A stretch of DNA of 64,000 bases from Stylophora pistillata (lineage: Eukaryota), in the NCBI RefSeq assembly GCF_002571385.2, contig NW_019217875.1, positions 295,422 through 359,421 on the forward strand, read 5' to 3'. Positions within the stretch are counted from its first letter, which is position 1, and the number at the start of each line of letters is the position of its first letter. Position numbers: made by a program. Shown here in pieces: positions 37,301 through 64,000 of this stretch.

Positions 37301-40300
37301 CTTTTGACCGTGGTCATACTTTCCACTCCAACAAAGAAACTTTCAAAACTCTAATTTGAGAAACTACTAACAGAGGGATGGACTTTTCGCAGCCATGTTT
37401 GGCTTTTAGAGTTGGCTTAGCTGTTACCATAGCAACAATCTGTCAATTTTAATTTGAGTTGGTCGTTTTGTGGTCATGTCACGCCAACTCTTACCGTCTT
37501 TCCTTTCCTCTATGTCAAGCCACCTCTGATCTTCCCAGGCACGATTACTTAGGGTTTACCAGATTTTATATAACCCTCGCTTAAGACGAGGAGGTCCGTC
37601 GGAAATATTAAATAAAACGTCGGAAAATGATTAAAAAAACAAAACAAAAAAAACACTTAATAGCAGGTGTTCCGTCGCCGTCGAAAGTCGCTGAAGCGGA
37701 TCGTTGTCAATTTCGGAATCTGAAAAATTTCGAACATGACCCGGGCTACATTTGCGTCACGAGTGTTAAATGCGTGATTATATTCACGCGATTGCTAAGC
37801 TATTTTCACAAACCACAATCAGTTTAAGGTCGTTTAATGGTTACTTCACCCACGAACACAAACAAGGAACATTTGAATCGCAGACAAAAGAAACGTCATT
37901 TGCATGCGGCAACACTTTACCCTTGATGGTGCGAAATCCATTTGAAACCTTGGTAGCCAGTTGAAGGGTAAACACACGCACACACACAAGTAGAGAGTGG
38001 AAGCTTGCGATGAAGAAGAAGTGTCGTGGATACTTGTTTCAATCGCTTGTGACTGTCCTATCGTTTGGCCATATTTTAAGTTCGTTGGCGACGCCAGCAG
38101 GTGAGATGAATATTTGATTCTATTTAATCATGGATCAGTTTGATCTACTGGATCATTTACAGAGCTGACGATTGTTGTCCTAAGCGGCTGCCTCCAGCGG
38201 CGCTTTCTTATCGATTATCTGGGGTACATGCACGTTTGACGGAGCACCACGTGGTTATTTCTCACTCTGCTGATAAACTGAACATGTCGCTGGTACATGC
38301 ACGTTTGACGGAGCACCACGTGGTTATTTCTCACTCTGCTGATAAACTGAACATGTCGCTGGTATCACTACACAGTGAGGTTTGAGAAGTAAAATCGTTT
38401 CGAAACAAGAAAGTCACCAAGTGGCGCTGTATATCGGTTTAATAGTTAAGAATAACGCCGTTTGTCTTCTTCAAACTCCGTCTGTCTGTCTGTCTGTCTG
38501 TCTCGTCTGCTCCCATGTTCTCGCGGGCCGTTGGCAGCTTTTAGAGCGTCATTTTGTTTTTTTGAGATGTGTGGTAATACGGGATCTAACAATAGAAGAA
38601 GATTTTCAAAATCATAGGATTAATTAACAACCTGATTCCTTGCGGAAGTCTTAAAGTTTTTGCTATTTTGATGAACTCTGATGAGATTATGTGAAGATAA
38701 ATCATCTGTAAGCGTTTTGTTTTTTCCTTTCAGAAAAACTTAAGAAAGGGGGTACTGGTCTGACTTATTGCCAACGCAATTTTTGATTATTCTCAGTGTT
38801 CTCGTGAACAAAAATTTCCTCTACCGAAGGGAGAGCAGAATCGAAAATGTTTATTTTCCCGTGCATTAATTTTTATCGATTGAACAAGGAGCTAATTTAT
38901 GATAATTGATGCCGTGCAGCCGAATACCACACGCTCTGCATCAAAAAGAGCAAGTCGTCCTTATGAGAAAGCTTCCCGCAAATTTTTTGGCTCTCCAGCC
39001 CCATTGTAAACTTTTTTTTTCATGCTGTTGTTTTTAAGGATTTCGCTGGTGTTGTGTTTCGGAAGCAGAAGTTTCTAAGTGCTTACACTTGGCGAATGTG
39101 ACATCACAGATCGCCTGGTTCCGGGGGATGATATGTATCCATGGAAACAACGTTACAAAATGTGTCAAGATGGTTGGTCATGGAACGGCCGATTTCATCA
39201 CTTTAGGAGAGGAGAATATTTATCAGGCTGGTAGGTCATTGTAAAATTTTAAAAAGCTGTATAGACGCTGGCAATTGGCAATGTAGTTTTTGTTAACAAT
39301 AGGGGCCAGGAGCCTCTTGGGGCCAAAAAATTGAAATAGCGAGCGCGAAAGTTTATGAAAAGGTCAAAGGGGCAAGGGACTTCTGGGCAAAATTGCTTCC
39401 GCTCTCTCCCCGCTCTTTTTCTGCGAACTCCTACCAAATTTTGCACGGTCGCTTTTCCGATTTTCTCCGCACCGACCCATAGAACTGAACTATACCTTTC
39501 AATAAAATTTATTTTTGACGCGGTTCTCGCCCCTCAGATCTGAAAGCTAACTCCCCTCACTGAAAATCACACATTTACTTGTGGTCAGCCTTAAGACTTT
39601 TAAGCTAAATGCAAACAACATCTGCGTCACCTTAATTCTTATCCCTCGTTTCTTTGACACAATTATGTCAAAATTGTCAGAATTAGCGTATCGATGACTT
39701 CCGAGACTGAAAGGGCTCAAGCCCACTTGAAATATTAAATTTTTGAAATCTTAAAGCAATTTCATCAATGTTTGTGGATCTTTACGAAATTCCAGTAGTT
39801 TGCATCACGTCTTAATGCGTCCTTTAATCTTAAACATCCCTGTTCCCTTTTTTTTATTTAATTCGTCATTGTTCTTGGCTACTGTTAGTCCCCTTCGCAG
39901 CAATTGTTTGGTCTCCTCACACAATGCGTTATGTTCCGTGACTAAACCAAACAACGGCTGCGAAGGAGACTAGGTTAACGTTGCAAATTATTACTGTCTA
40001 AAGGTCTCCGTCAATGGCAATGTTCGACGACCCAAAGTACAATCAAAATATCGCCACGTACCTCCCCTATGATTAAATGCATGGAAAGCAATCGATCTAG
40101 GTCATTTCACATTTAACTAGGTTCCAAACATGGTCTTGTGCCAGTGGTAGCGGAGGACTATGGCAAACAAGAAGAAGGTCTAGAAAGCTATTCCGTTGCC
40201 CTTATTAGAAGCAATCTGTCGGAAGGTGTCTCAATGAATTCGCTAAAGGACACCAAATCTTGTCACCCTGCCGCGGGGGACTCAGTCGGGTGGACAGCTC

Positions 40301-61300: not shown

Positions 61301-64000
61301 ATTTTTCCCGCCGTCATATTTCGTGGAGTTGAAGAGCTGGAAATCATTCCAGTTGGTCTGTTTCCTGCCGTACTTGTCACTCATGGCCGTTAATATTTTG
61401 ATGATGTCTTCGATGTCAGAGTTTTCCTTCCTCGTAACCACTGCATGTGCAGGACTTGCGCCGAGATTGCATTCTTTTTGGTGTCCAATTTCTGAAAATG
61501 ATTGAAAAAATTGTACATGATATTGACAAAAACTCTATCAAGTAGAATGCGTCCCCCAAACTCAATGCCTATAGACCTTTAAATAGCCAGTTAAGAAGAA
61601 GCGTTTCTTATGTTTCTTGATATTAATAGAAACAAAAGTGTGGATTTACTGATGTTGTGAGGGCCAAGAATTTGACCGCAAAGTAATGGTGATGGGAAAA
61701 TGGGTTCGAAGTTAGAAGGAGGAAAGAAGGAGGAGTGACAAATGTCCGAGGTTCTTCGTTTCCATGGTAACCGTTAGTTCGGAGTAGCAGTGTATCGTGC
61801 CTTACCTGGTGAACAAATTACTCTGAATTTTGGGATAATTAGCCCTAGAAATCTATTCATACTGGTTGCCCGAGCAGCGGAGGTGGACGACGCAGAGACA
61901 TCTTAATTGAAGTGTAACAATTCAGGATGAAGCTATTTGCATGTATATAGGGGAGATCAAATGATTAGAACAGACTACCGGTTTCTCAACTCACGCTGGA
62001 AAAATTGAAGGGTTTTATTCTTTTCTATCTCTTCCAATTATTTATCTTCATCTGATATTATCATTATTTTTGTTTGAAAGGAATATAAATGGGCGCTGGT
62101 AAATCATTAGGAAAATTAGAGGAAATACGGCGGATTACCTGTTGTGGACCAGCATTCCGTGCATGATAAAAAGCAATTCCTCACTTCTTGACACGCAAAT
62201 ATTTTAAGCCCGAGAAGAAGCTGCACAAGTCAACTGCGTATAAGAACTACCAGACCTCAAAAAGGATATACGTAATGCATACATTACCCATTCTCCCTCC
62301 ATTCGCGCACAAGTACTGGTATGCGGTCTTGTTAGCCTCATCATAGAAAGGCTTTGGTGAGTCCATCTCGATTTTCACAAAAGCCACGTCACCCTTGCCA
62401 TCCTTCATGCATTTGAAGGCCTCTTTATGGTAGTCGGAAGAGCTTACAGTGCACTTGTCATCTTCAGGACCGTCACACAGACTGCAGAGGTTTTGGACCT
62501 TCTGGTAGACGTCTGCACTTACTTTACATTTGGTACCTTGCAAACCGAACGAAAGAGAATTGATTGCTAAATACAATGAAACTAAAATCGAAGACATATT
62601 TCTGGAGAAGGAGCTCGAACCCGTCTGTCCAAGATATTTAATGGTTGAACGCAACCATAACTGAGCAAAGAAGCCTCATGTTGTGAAGGCAAATGTTTTT
62701 GGGTTCTTGGTTCCCTCCTGATTACTTTTAAAAAATAAGCATAGTTTTTTTCTGTTCAGACAGGGTATCCAATTTTTTATTTTTTTAAATTTTTTTTATT
62801 ACTCCTACTCCTACCCTTCTCCCTTCCCCCCCCCCCTAATCCCGGTCGAATGATGGTAAATCAAACATTTTATCTCAATATTTTGAAAGGAATGAAGGAA
62901 CTGTGCTGCCTTACTGATGATACTGATATACCGATATATGCTAGACACTCTAGTCTTTTTGGATGAAGAGAAAAATCCGGGTAGTTTTCTCTTGCACTAT
63001 TATTATCAGGAACCCACTCATTATTCGAAAAAAATGAAAATATAGGTCGGAGTTCCCCATCTTCAGGTCTTTCTTTGTGAAGGATTTAAAAATTGACGAA
63101 TAGAAGCGGTTTGAGGCGACACAAAGTACTTAGTCTCTGTCAGTGCATAGAGAAGACATCGCGAGGTAGGAAATTGATGAATATCCAATATTCTACCAAG
63201 CCTATCAGTATAACAATAGAAGAGAGTTTTAATCACACATCTTCGCTCTTACGTGGGACACAGCTCTCACTGAAGAACTTTGAAGCTGACAAGTATGACT
63301 TGTAAGGGTTCGCACAATCCACGGGGTCCATAATCCCTGAGCGTAACAAAAATCCCACGGAAATTTTCCAACCTGCATTCTTATCAGCTTGAGTGTGGCA
63401 AGACTTCTTTCCTTTAAGAGTCTTCAAGTCGAAGCCTGTGTTTGCCTTTTTCACAATGGCAACAGCGTAGTATTTCACATCGTACTCGCCATACTGCTCA
63501 GAGACAATGACCCTGAAGTCATATTTTTCACCTGTAAGAATGTGAAACAACTCAGACATGAGCTATCAATTTCTAAGCAAAAATATCAACCATTGAATAG
63601 TAGTATACACTAGCAAAGCGGATGATGTCGAAGGCACTCTCTGCGGATTGGCTACTTAAACTCCGAATATCCTTTGCTATTCACCTCCGAGCAATGCGCG
63701 CAGGATTTGCACCCGAAAATATTGTTATCGTTGCAAGAATAAGTGAGTTGAAATCATCTTTTTGTGCTATATTATCTCACCGTTTTAGTTTATACTGAAA
63801 CAAGTATTAGGCCGTTCCGCGTGCCCACCAGTTTTGAATATGGTATTCTTAAATGAAAAAAAAGGGCTCAAGAAGAAATCAAAATACAATCAAAAAGAAG
63901 ACAGAAAAATATTCATTGAAGCGAATTAGCTTTTCACCGATTTGTTTTTAAGGAAATCTATACATCTAAGCTCAAAAACCATCTTTCTTACTGATCAGAA

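What the first reader, a model, noticed from the sequence alone, without database searches (positions are those of the whole stretch)
38010..63531. Cluster of three monolobal, probably GPI-anchored transferrins with graded loss of the iron site
Seen: TF-A and TF-B each encode one lobe (~406 aa) between a signal peptide and a hydrophobic tail; TF-C matches TF-B in its visible exons and intron positions. TF-B keeps Asp/Tyr/Tyr/His and anion-binding Thr/Arg. TF-C has Arg>Lys and a remodelled second-Tyr loop (DYHKEAF). TF-A loses Asp (LGEE), His (PSRVV), Thr and Arg (CHPAAGD). Known: most animal transferrins are bilobal, and fish otolith matrix protein-1 is a monolobal transferrin-like biomineral protein. 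Inference: a cell-surface system sub-functionalised into an iron/carbonate binder and non-iron members (other ligands, mineral matrix, or heterodimer partners mimicking a bilobal protein).
Basis: partly seen in the sequence, partly recalled or inferred. Interest (0 to 1): 0.74.

Follow-up and report, generated by a model that had tools for sequence, protein, structure and literature searches.

The report
Three single-lobe coral transferrin genes
A stony-coral genome piece carries three related genes for half-size, probably membrane-tethered transferrins: one keeps a complete iron-binding site, one has an altered site and one has lost it.

Summary
The window carries three paralogous transferrin genes, each encoding one lobe. 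TF-A (+, 38010-42428) gives 407 aa and TF-B (-, 51620-44744) gives 406 aa. TF-C (-, 63531-61100) lacks its first two exons, which lie beyond the window end. All introns are phase 1 and fall at the same alignment columns. No second lobe exists anywhere in the window. Database proteins on short contigs match the exons colinearly, so the spliced products really are single-lobed.

TF-B keeps all six iron and carbonate residues. TF-C has Arg>Lys, two Gly changes and a 4-residue deletion that puts either His or a shifted Tyr at the second-Tyr position. All five changes recur in 7 of 7 orthologues.

The nearest solved structure is human melanotransferrin. In the tree the cnidarian single-lobe proteins form their own clade. 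TF-A is an old paralogue; TF-B and TF-C are a recent duplication.

A GPI anchor is plausible for TF-B and TF-C and weaker for TF-A; none is proven. Iron binding, a joint "system" and heterodimers remain untested. I rate this a new variant of a known family, of moderate interest.

The parts
38010..38100 (+). TF-A exon 1: ATG plus signal-peptide-like N-terminus (30 codons + 1 base, phase 1)
   Evidence: Sequence read. 30 of 30 residues identical to P0059 residues 1-30.
39039..39230 (+). TF-A exon 2: holds TLGEE, where the Asp ligand is replaced by Gly
   Evidence: PF00405 profile 2-64, E 1e-10. Splice sites read. 62 of 63 residues identical to P0059.
40121..40396 (+). TF-A exon 3: ESYSVAL (first Tyr ligand replaced by Ser) and CHPAAGD (Thr>Pro, Arg>Asp)
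   Evidence: PF00405 profile 66-155, E 1e-16. Codons. Direct PDB alignment. 89 of 91 residues identical to P0059.
41285..41542 (+). TF-A exon 4: FGYHGAY, the only ligand kept (second Tyr)
   Evidence: PF00405 profile 160-232, E 3.8e-17. Codons. 84 of 85 residues identical to P0059.
42022..42428 (+). TF-A exon 5: PSRVV (His>Arg), a short hydrophobic C-terminal tail, stop TAA
   Evidence: PF00405 profile 233-327, E 1.6e-13. Codons. 134 of 134 residues identical to P0059. Tail analysis.
51560..51620 (-). TF-B exon 1: ATG plus signal-peptide-like N-terminus (20 codons + 1 base)
   Evidence: Sequence read. 18 of 20 residues identical to P0002 residues 1-20. It lies about 2.5 kb upstream of exon 2.
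48804..49013 (-). TF-B exon 2: TLDGG, Asp ligand kept
   Evidence: PF00405 profile 2-64, E 1.6e-14. Sequence. 68 of 69 residues identical to P0002.
46683..46961 (-). TF-B exon 3: KYFAVAV (first Tyr kept) and CHTGAGRTAGW (Thr and Arg kept)
   Evidence: PF00405 profile 66-177, E 1.5e-24. Codons.
45479..45742 (-). TF-B exon 4: VGYHGAF, second Tyr kept
   Evidence: PF00405 profile 158-233, E 1.5e-19. Codons.
44744..45150 (-). TF-B exon 5: NPAHAVV (His kept), Ser/Thr-rich stalk, S-A-S, then a 20-residue hydrophobic C-terminus, stop TAA
   Evidence: PF00405 profile 233-326, E 2.8e-16. Codons. Tail analysis.
63253..63531 (-). TF-C third exon (first one inside the window): KYYAVAI (first Tyr kept) and CHTQADKNAGW (Thr kept; Gly>Gln, Gly>Asp, Arg>Lys). 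The donor gives Arg where TF-B has Gly.
   Evidence: Codons. 92 of 92 residues identical to P0006 residues 90-181. 65% identical to the TF-B exon.
62288..62536 (-). TF-C fourth exon: the second-Tyr loop is 4 residues shorter between the flanking DKC and AFKC motifs (the exon is 83 codons against 88 in TF-B) and reads SSSDYHKEAF
   Evidence: Codons. Direct PDB alignments. 80 of 82 residues identical to P0006.
61100..61491 (-). TF-C fifth exon: SPAHAVV (His kept), Ser/Thr stalk, hydrophobic C-terminus, stop TAG
   Evidence: Codons. 127 of 129 residues identical to P0006 residues 266-394. Tail analysis.

Best explanation
The locus holds three paralogous genes of a cnidarian family of single-lobe, melanotransferrin-like glycoproteins. 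They enter the secretory pathway and most likely stay on the membrane through a C-terminal GPI-type signal.

Shown:
- One transferrin lobe per gene, with a shared five-exon structure.
- Each gene ends in a stop codon after that one lobe.
- The state of the metal and anion residues in each copy.
- The order of the duplications.

Inferred:
- TF-B works like a classical transferrin lobe. Two subdomains close over Fe(III), held by Asp, two Tyr and His, with carbonate held by Thr, Arg and a helix N-terminus. Tethered to the cell surface or to endocytic membranes, it would capture or internalise iron without a separate receptor, as has been proposed for melanotransferrin.
- TF-C is a fast-evolving young copy of TF-B. 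Its changed anion loop and second-Tyr loop alter metal or anion preference.
- TF-A is an ancient paralogue that no longer binds iron. It uses the same clamshell for another ligand or partner, as other non-iron transferrins do (otolith matrix protein-1, the melanotransferrin C-lobe, inhibitor of carbonic anhydrase, saxiphilin).
For: - Family and single lobe: Pfam tiling once per gene. No other transferrin exon in 64 kb.
- Spliced products: exon-by-exon colinearity with complete 394-411 aa database proteins. Their longest contigs (1406-2500 nt) are shorter than the genomic spans (4.4 and 6.9 kb), so they must be spliced.
- Nearest solved structure: human melanotransferrin 6xr0_M, E 4e-141, 4.7e-127 and 5.6e-102 for the TF-A-, TF-B- and TF-C-like proteins.
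- Fold: AF2 models with pLDDT 75.4 and 79.7 match transferrin lobes, Foldseek E 1e-25 to 1e-31, TM up to 0.82.
- Site states across 18 proteins: four coral proteins keep 6 of 6 residues, including the TF-B-like one. The window's own TF-B was read directly.
- TF-A clade, 7 of 7: Gly at the Asp position, Pro at Thr, Arg at His, Ser or Asn at the first Tyr, and Asp (6) or Asn (1) at Arg.
- Tree (ultrafast bootstrap/SH-aLRT): cnidarian single-lobe clade 97/93; TF-A clade 100/100 on a stem of 0.98; TF-B+TF-C sisters 99/99; TF-C stem 0.32 against 0.085 for TF-B.
- Tails: 16 of 16 cnidarian proteins or window exons end in a hydrophobic segment of 16-30 residues (mean Kyte-Doolittle 0.98-2.35) with no cytoplasmic tail. 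Five secreted transferrins score -0.61 to 0.53.
- HMMER aligns the TF-C tail to the last residues of human melanotransferrin. From recall, that region carries its GPI signal.
- Context from papers, passages only. In Acropora muricata single-cell data, 'transferrin' rises in symbiont-bearing cells and 'melanotransferrin' follows skeletal-matrix genes in calicoblasts (PMC12019164). A 'melanotransferrin-like' protein is listed in the red-coral skeleton proteome (PMC7853314).
Against: - No metal binding, localisation or expression was measured for these genes.
- No GPI predictor was available. My omega-site scan was crude: it returned no candidate for the window's TF-A and TF-C and only a doubtful one for TF-B.
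- TF-A's tail is 18 residues with an internal Glu, and its likely omega motif is altered.
- The TF-C second-Tyr position is ambiguous between two aligners (against 32 and 55).
- For TF-A's first Tyr, alignments to the ovotransferrin C-lobe put the Tyr on the ligand by opening a gap.
- The papers cited concern other species, and their gene identities could not be mapped because supplements are closed.
- The proteins are near neutral (pI 6.0-7.1), so they do not look like acidic matrix proteins.
Confidence: 0.6

Rival explanations
1. Biomineral or carbonate handling. One or more copies, TF-A first, act at the calcifying epithelium or inside the skeleton matrix, as fish otolith matrix protein-1 does in otoliths, rather than in iron traffic.
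For: - OMP-1 is single-lobed, has lost iron ligands and has Thr>Pro at the anion site, as TF-A does (tables in PMC3603312).
- Knockdown of OMP-1 reduces otolith size (PMC3125230 passages).
- A melanotransferrin-like protein is listed in the Corallium rubrum skeleton proteome.
- 'Melanotransferrin' follows skeletal-matrix genes along the calicoblast trajectory in A. muricata.
Against: - The one OMP-1-like protein I had (a sturgeon record, P0079) groups with vertebrate melanotransferrin C-lobes (97/91), not with coral genes, so any likeness is convergent.
- The coral proteins carry membrane-type tails that this OMP-1-like protein lacks and are not acidic (pI 6.0-7.1).
- No stony-coral skeleton proteome in the searchable text names a transferrin. 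Supplement tables were closed.
Confidence: 0.15
2. Epithelial junction role. The membrane-tethered transferrins help to assemble septate junctions, as Drosophila melanotransferrin (Tsf2) does. Iron binding would serve junction assembly rather than nutrition.
For: - The closest known family is melanotransferrin.
- Cnidarians have septate junctions, and the fly melanotransferrin is a septate-junction component. The fly work is recalled; the papers found were seen only in a search listing.
Against: - No paper in the searchable library links a cnidarian transferrin to junctions. Four papers held all three search terms, none about a cnidarian protein.
- Nothing in the sequences speaks to it.
- The fly protein is bilobal.
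Confidence: 0.08
3. Iron withholding in innate immunity or mucus. TF-B, and perhaps TF-C, are shed and starve microbes of iron, as lactoferrin and sea-star melanotransferrin are reported to do.
For: - TF-B has an intact site.
- The A. muricata paper groups 'melanotransferrin' with immune genes.
- Sea-star mucus melanotransferrin is cited as antimicrobial (PMC6165293 passage).
Against: - A hydrophobic tail argues for tethering rather than free secretion, although GPI proteins can be shed.
- No expression data exist for these genes.
Confidence: 0.12
4. Pseudo-bilobal heterodimer. TF-A pairs with TF-B or TF-C so that two single lobes mimic a two-lobed transferrin.
For: Only that the genes are neighbours and that two-lobed transferrins pack lobe against lobe. 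No tool result supports it.
Against: - TF-A split from the TF-B type long before the TF-B/TF-C duplication.
- In Montipora, a paralogue with altered site residues arose by a separate duplication. No TF-A copy was recovered from any named genome, but my searches were word-limited.
Confidence: 0.04
5. TF-A and/or TF-C are decaying pseudogenes whose site losses are neutral.
For: Loss of ligands. TF-C has a long branch after the duplication.
Against: - The reading frames are intact, with canonical splice sites.
- Spliced database proteins match.
- The same substitutions occur in 7 of 7 TF-A orthologues down to about 60% identity, and in both TF-C proteins.
- 42 columns, including the Cys framework, are invariant across all 18 proteins.
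Confidence: 0.02

Closest known systems
Vertebrate melanotransferrin (MELTF / p97; solved structure 6xr0)
   Same: - It is the best-scoring solved relative of all three proteins and the top Foldseek match of both models.
- It is membrane-tethered by GPI (recalled), and the coral tails align to its C-terminal end.
- Its C-lobe has lost Asp, Thr and Arg, much as TF-A has (alignment; tables in PMC3603312).
   Different: - Melanotransferrin has two lobes in one chain; the coral proteins have one.
- The coral clade does not nest with vertebrate melanotransferrin lobes.
- The coral gene has five exons, all with phase-1 introns.
Fish otolith matrix protein-1 (OMP-1)
   Same: It is single-lobed, has lost iron ligands and has Thr>Pro at the anion site, as TF-A does (PMC3603312 tables; PMC3125230 passages).
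   Different: - The one OMP-1-like protein I had (sturgeon P0079) groups with vertebrate melanotransferrin C-lobes (97/91), so it has a separate origin.
- That protein has no hydrophobic tail and keeps five of six site residues, with Thr>Ser.
Ascidian one-lobed transferrins (Ciona nicatransferrin, Halocynthia, Pyura)
   Same: They are true single-lobe transferrins with the metal site kept, as in TF-B. They have been proposed as general metal carriers (PMC3125230 passages).
   Different: - They are described as soluble plasma proteins (recalled).
- No ascidian sequence came up in my searches, so kinship was not tested.
Non-iron two-lobed transferrins (inhibitor of carbonic anhydrase, saxiphilin)
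   Same: They reuse the transferrin clamshell for a non-metal partner. Both appear among the solved relatives.
   Different: They are bilobal, vertebrate-specific and soluble. Nothing links TF-A to their ligands.

Membership tests
Transferrin family (Pfam PF00405) | Sequence match to the lobe profile above the curated cut-off | tested here: met
   8 of 8 TF-A and TF-B exon ORFs score 41.8-87.2 bits against a cut-off of 20.3. TF-C exons are 56-66% identical to TF-B exons.
Transferrin family (Pfam PF00405) | Two-subdomain clamshell fold of one lobe | tested here: met
   AF2 models of P0059 and P0002 (pLDDT 75.4 and 79.7). Foldseek gives probability 1.00 and TM 0.78-0.82 to isolated N-lobes. These are database proteins 99% and 94% identical to the window's exons, not the window's own joined sequence.
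Transferrin family (Pfam PF00405) | Fe(III) ligands Asp, Tyr, Tyr, His | tested here: inconclusive
   TF-B keeps 4 of 4. TF-C keeps 3 of 4 for certain; the second Tyr is ambiguous (against 32, 55). TF-A keeps 1 of 4. The feature is met for TF-B and not met for TF-A. Residue numbering is recalled from human serum transferrin.
Transferrin family (Pfam PF00405) | Synergistic-anion residues Thr and Arg | tested here: inconclusive
   TF-B keeps both. TF-C keeps Thr and has Lys for Arg. TF-A has Pro and Asp.
Transferrin family (Pfam PF00405) | Reversible Fe(III)/carbonate binding | not testable with these tools
   This needs recombinant protein and spectroscopy.
Melanotransferrin (MELTF) orthologues | Two lobes in one polypeptide | tested here: not met
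   There is one profile copy per gene and no further exons. Complete proteins are 394-411 aa.
Melanotransferrin (MELTF) orthologues | Groups with melanotransferrin lobes in a tree | tested here: not met
   The cnidarian proteins form their own clade (97/93), outside the vertebrate melanotransferrin N- and C-lobe groups. The deeper branches are weak (70/68, 89/61).
Melanotransferrin (MELTF) orthologues | C-terminal GPI attachment signal | tested here: inconclusive
   A hydrophobic C-terminus without a cytoplasmic tail occurs in 16 of 16 cnidarian sequences. Small-residue motifs (S-A-S in TF-B, S-T-S in TF-C) were read by eye. The scripted omega scan was unreliable. TF-A is weak. No dedicated predictor was available.
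Otolith matrix protein-1 | Common origin with OMP-1 | tested here: not met
   The only OMP-1-like row, sturgeon P0079, joins vertebrate melanotransferrin C-lobes, 97/91.
Otolith matrix protein-1 | Presence in a calcium carbonate biomineral | not testable with these tools
   Skeleton proteome tables sit in supplements, which are closed. The main texts name a melanotransferrin-like protein only for Corallium rubrum.
Ascidian one-lobed transferrin | Single lobe with intact site | tested here: met
   TF-B meets this. Kinship was not tested because no ascidian sequence was at hand.

The most novel reading that the evidence does not exclude
Cnidarian single-lobe, membrane-tethered transferrins could preserve the architecture that existed before the lobe duplication that gave all two-lobed animal transferrins.

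On that background corals have repeatedly retuned the site. A His-for-Tyr switch is seen independently in Montipora and Oculina, and possibly in TF-C.

Corals also keep one ancient, strictly conserved metal-free member, TF-A. Its charge-swapped cleft (Arg at the His position, Asp at the Arg position) would bind a coral-specific ligand or partner in calcifying or symbiont-bearing cells.
Probability: 0.2. Interest if true: 0.75.

Novelty: new variant of a known kind. Interest (0 to 1): 0.5.

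Why it matters
- **Origin of two-lobed transferrins.** They are thought to come from a one-lobed ancestor. The open literature I could search names true one-lobed forms only in ascidians and in fish otoliths (PMC3125230).
- **What the coral family adds.** It spans several coral families: Pocillopora, Montipora, Orbicella, Oculina and Desmophyllum records appear. 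That gives a second, deep-branching set in which the ancestral question and the cost of having one lobe can be tested.
- **A natural experiment in one locus.** The window offers an intact site, a remodelled site and an abolished but conserved site side by side.
- **Coral physiology.** Iron supply to symbionts and carbonate handling at the skeleton are both open problems. These genes are cheap candidates for either.

Tried and rejected
- **Heterodimer test.** The complex job paired the TF-B-like and TF-A-like ectodomains. It gave no answer: score 0.00 against a mark of 0.34, and controls were not run. It counts neither for nor against binding.
- **Open versus closed models.** The TF-A-like model fits apo/open N-lobes (TM 0.80-0.82) better than closed ones (0.57-0.61). 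The TF-B-like control with an intact site also prefers open forms (0.78-0.79 against 0.69-0.71). I therefore draw nothing from this.
- **Fourth, decayed copy.** A 22-residue likeness to exon 5 at 59198-59263 (+) has E 0.05, with stops on both sides. A more permissive tblastn of 56000-61000 gave no other exon relic in the parts of its output that I saw; the output was cut. I treat it as chance or as an unrecognisable relic.
- **Scripted omega-site scan.** Its hydrophobic segment ran into the stalk, so it missed obvious small-residue motifs. I kept only the tail hydrophobicity comparison.
- **Cluster look-up.** The taxonomic spread of TF-A therefore stays unknown.
- **Literature dead ends.** Several 'transferrin' hits were the word 'transferring' or glycoprotein controls.
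- **Searches for a cnidarian one-lobed transferrin.** No paper describing one turned up. Subscription reviews of the family are not in the library.
- **Not attempted.** dN/dS between TF-B and TF-C, because about 60% protein identity implies saturated synonymous sites. The 1.84-billion representative scan and the atlas look-up, because neither gives taxonomy.

Full report
**What is in the sequence.** The region is AT-rich eukaryotic DNA, GC about 0.38-0.42. Only one N falls inside the finding, at 57554. Stop-to-stop ORFs and Pfam show transferrin-coding exons in three places. All 8 of 8 exon ORFs of TF-A and TF-B match PF00405, E 1e-10 to 1.5e-24. Within each gene the four matches tile the 328-position single-lobe profile once, from position 2 to 326/327. 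A tblastn of 11 exon ORFs against the whole window finds only these three loci and no additional lobe.

**Gene models.** I read the splice sites from the DNA.
- TF-A (+): 38010-38100, 39039-39230, 40121-40396, 41285-41542, 42022-42428, giving 407 aa.
- TF-B (-): 51620-51560, 49013-48804, 46961-46683, 45742-45479, 45150-44744, giving 406 aa.
- TF-B exon 1 lies 2.5 kb upstream of exon 2. I found it through the N-terminus of a database relative.
- TF-C (-): 63531-63253, 62536-62288, 61491-61100. Its two 5' exons are not in the remaining 469 bases of the window.
- Every intron is GT..AG and phase 1. Introns 2-4 fall in the same alignment columns (104, 203, 300) in all three genes, so the copies arose by gene duplication.

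**How I handled the spliced models.** Window sequence went to every search exon by exon. Steps that needed a whole protein used database proteins returned by the tools. Those proteins validate the models. Each exon aligns without gaps to consecutive stretches of one protein, with exactly one residue (the split codon) skipped at each junction.
- TF-A: 399 of 403 residues identical to P0059 (407 aa), over positions 1-30, 32-94, 96-186, 188-272 and 274-407.
- TF-C: 299 of 303 identical to P0006 (394 aa), over positions 90-394.
- TF-B: 378 of 402 identical to P0002 (411 aa), with one 5-residue repeat difference in the stalk.

The longest contigs holding these proteins are 2214, 1406 and 2500 nt. 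That is shorter than the genomic genes, so they are spliced products that stop after one lobe.

**The metal and anion site.** Residue numbers are recalled from the human serum transferrin N-lobe: Asp63, Tyr95, Tyr188, His249, Thr120, Arg124.
- TF-B keeps all six: TLDGG, KYFAVAV, CHTGAGR, VGYHGAF, NPAHAVV.
- TF-A also lacks the first Tyr. In the gap-free register of the VAL/VAV strand, Ser sits on the ligand position and the Tyr sits on the next, non-ligand position. MAFFT agrees, as do HMMER alignments to both melanotransferrin lobes and the ovotransferrin N-lobe. Only alignments to the ovotransferrin C-lobe put the Tyr on the ligand, by opening a gap.
- Five of the six TF-A orthologues read x-Y-A-V-A-L, which fixes the register.
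- TF-A therefore keeps 1 of 6 residues.
- TF-C keeps the first Tyr, Thr and His. Through P0006 and P0005 it also keeps Asp. It has Lys for Arg, and Gln and Asp for the two Gly of the anion loop. Its second-Tyr loop is 4 residues shorter.
- HMMER puts TF-C's His on the ligand Tyr in 8 of 8 printed lobe alignments and in both melanotransferrin lobes. MAFFT puts the Tyr there with a one-residue insertion. I leave this open.

**Conservation and history.** Three searches returned single-lobe proteins of 362-412 aa.
- Named coral genomes: Pocillopora meandrina; Montipora capricornis (two); Orbicella faveolata; Oculina patagonica; and a 200-aa Desmophyllum fragment. They are labelled 'melanotransferrin-like' or 'serotransferrin-like'.
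- Unnamed records made up the rest.
- In a table of 18 proteins, the seven TF-A-type proteins all carry Gly, Pro and Arg at the Asp, Thr and His positions. They have Ser (5) or Asn (2) at the first Tyr and Asp (6) or Asn (1) at Arg. One even has Cys at the remaining Tyr.
- Four proteins keep all six residues.
- Montipora P0012 and P0023 and Oculina P0071 have an unambiguous His at the second-Tyr position, with further changes.

The maximum-likelihood tree has 50 rows. Two-lobed proteins were cut into lobes, and two lobes shorter than 250 aa were dropped. Support is ultrafast bootstrap/SH-aLRT (quick version).
- All cnidarian single-lobe proteins form one clade (97/93).
- TF-A is a 100/100 clade on a long stem (0.98).
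- An unnamed 377-aa protein plus the TF-B-type corals form its sister (99/94).
- TF-B and TF-C are sisters (99/99). TF-C's stem is nearly four times longer (0.32 against 0.085).
- The Montipora paralogues come from a separate duplication, so site changes arose repeatedly.
- The only OMP-1-like protein in the set (sturgeon P0079) joins vertebrate melanotransferrin C-lobes (97/91).
- The place of the cnidarian clade relative to bilaterian N- and C-lobes is weakly supported (70/68, 89/61) and the tree is unrooted. Whether one lobe is ancestral or secondary is not settled.

**Family and fold.** The best solved relative of all three is human melanotransferrin (6xr0), with both lobes scoring alike. 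AF2 models of the TF-A-like and TF-B-like proteins (pLDDT 75.4 and 79.7) match transferrin lobes with probability 1.00. Both models have a low-confidence stalk followed by a terminal helix.

**Targeting.**
- The N-termini have a charged start, a hydrophobic core and small residues before the mature RWC motif. No signal-peptide predictor was available.
- All 16 cnidarian sequences examined end in a hydrophobic segment with no cytoplasmic tail, unlike five secreted transferrins.
- TF-B (S-A-S, then 20 hydrophobic residues) and TF-C (S-T-S, then 21) look like GPI signals by eye.
- TF-A is weaker. Its tail has 18 residues with a Glu. The G-T-G seen in three orthologues (G-R-G in a fourth) reads R-T-G in the window.
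- Sequons are present in all three.

**Function.** Nothing here measures function.
- Passages in an Acropora muricata single-cell paper report 'transferrin' up in symbiont-bearing cells and 'melanotransferrin' alongside skeletal-matrix genes in calicoblasts (PMC12019164; outline and passages read).
- A red-coral skeleton proteome lists a melanotransferrin-like protein (PMC7853314; one table passage).
- I could not map those genes to TF-A, TF-B or TF-C because supplements are closed.
- Two transferrin-evolution papers (PMC3125230 and PMC3603312; passages) state that true one-lobed transferrins were known only from ascidians and fish OMP-1. They tabulate Thr>Pro in OMP-1 and in melanotransferrin C-lobes.
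- Searches for a described cnidarian one-lobed transferrin found none. Subscription reviews are outside the library.

**Verdict.**
- Supported: single-lobe architecture, the graded site loss and a conserved non-iron member.
- Plausible but unproven: the GPI anchor.
- Unsupported: a cooperative system or heterodimers.

The genes already exist as unstudied predictions in coral annotations. I rate this a new variant of a known family, of moderate interest.

Noticed in passing
window 53957-54278 (+) and 57598-58168 (-): Five tRNA-Thr(AGT) genes or tRNA-like units, spaced 249 bp apart, form two arrays in inverted orientation on either side of the GPCR-like ORFs. They could be a tRNA gene cluster or a tRNA-derived repeat.
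   Followed up: partly
window 55310-56228 (-): A rhodopsin-family GPCR lies between TF-B and TF-C. It is spread over three reading frames: Pfam 7tm_1 profile 1-106 in one ORF and 195-260 in another. This suggests a frameshifted pseudogene or an assembly error.
   Followed up: partly
window 12419-13207 (-) and 14812-15495 (-): Two tandem intron-less ORFs match peptide deformylase, PF01327, E 4e-38 and 2e-43.
   Followed up: no
window 49310-49700 and 51946-52310: Near-identical copies of a repeat element flank TF-B exon 1, one in intron 1 and one upstream (ORF translations). A related piece lies at 53558-53869.
   Followed up: no
window 52523-52834 (+): A DEAD/RecQ-type helicase fragment (PF00270, E 3.6e-06) sits upstream of TF-B exon 1. 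It may be part of a mobile element.
   Followed up: no
window 59198-59263 (+): A 22-residue stretch resembles the FQLFNSS...KDLLFKDS motif of transferrin exon 5 (E 0.05), with stops on both sides. No other relic exon turned up nearby in the parts of the permissive search output that I saw.
   Followed up: yes
window 38215-38364 (+): A tandem duplication of roughly 70 bp lies in TF-A intron 1. It is visible in the sequence and as repeated ORF translations.
   Followed up: no
window 36334-37350 (-) and 31201-31950 (+): An ankyrin-repeat ORF lies just upstream of TF-A, and a PDZ-domain exon lies further upstream. Both appear unrelated to the transferrin genes.
   Followed up: no
database proteins P0012, P0023 (Montipora type) and P0071 (Oculina): These coral paralogues outside the window have an unambiguous His at the second-Tyr ligand position. 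They arose by duplications separate from the one that gave TF-C.
   Followed up: partly
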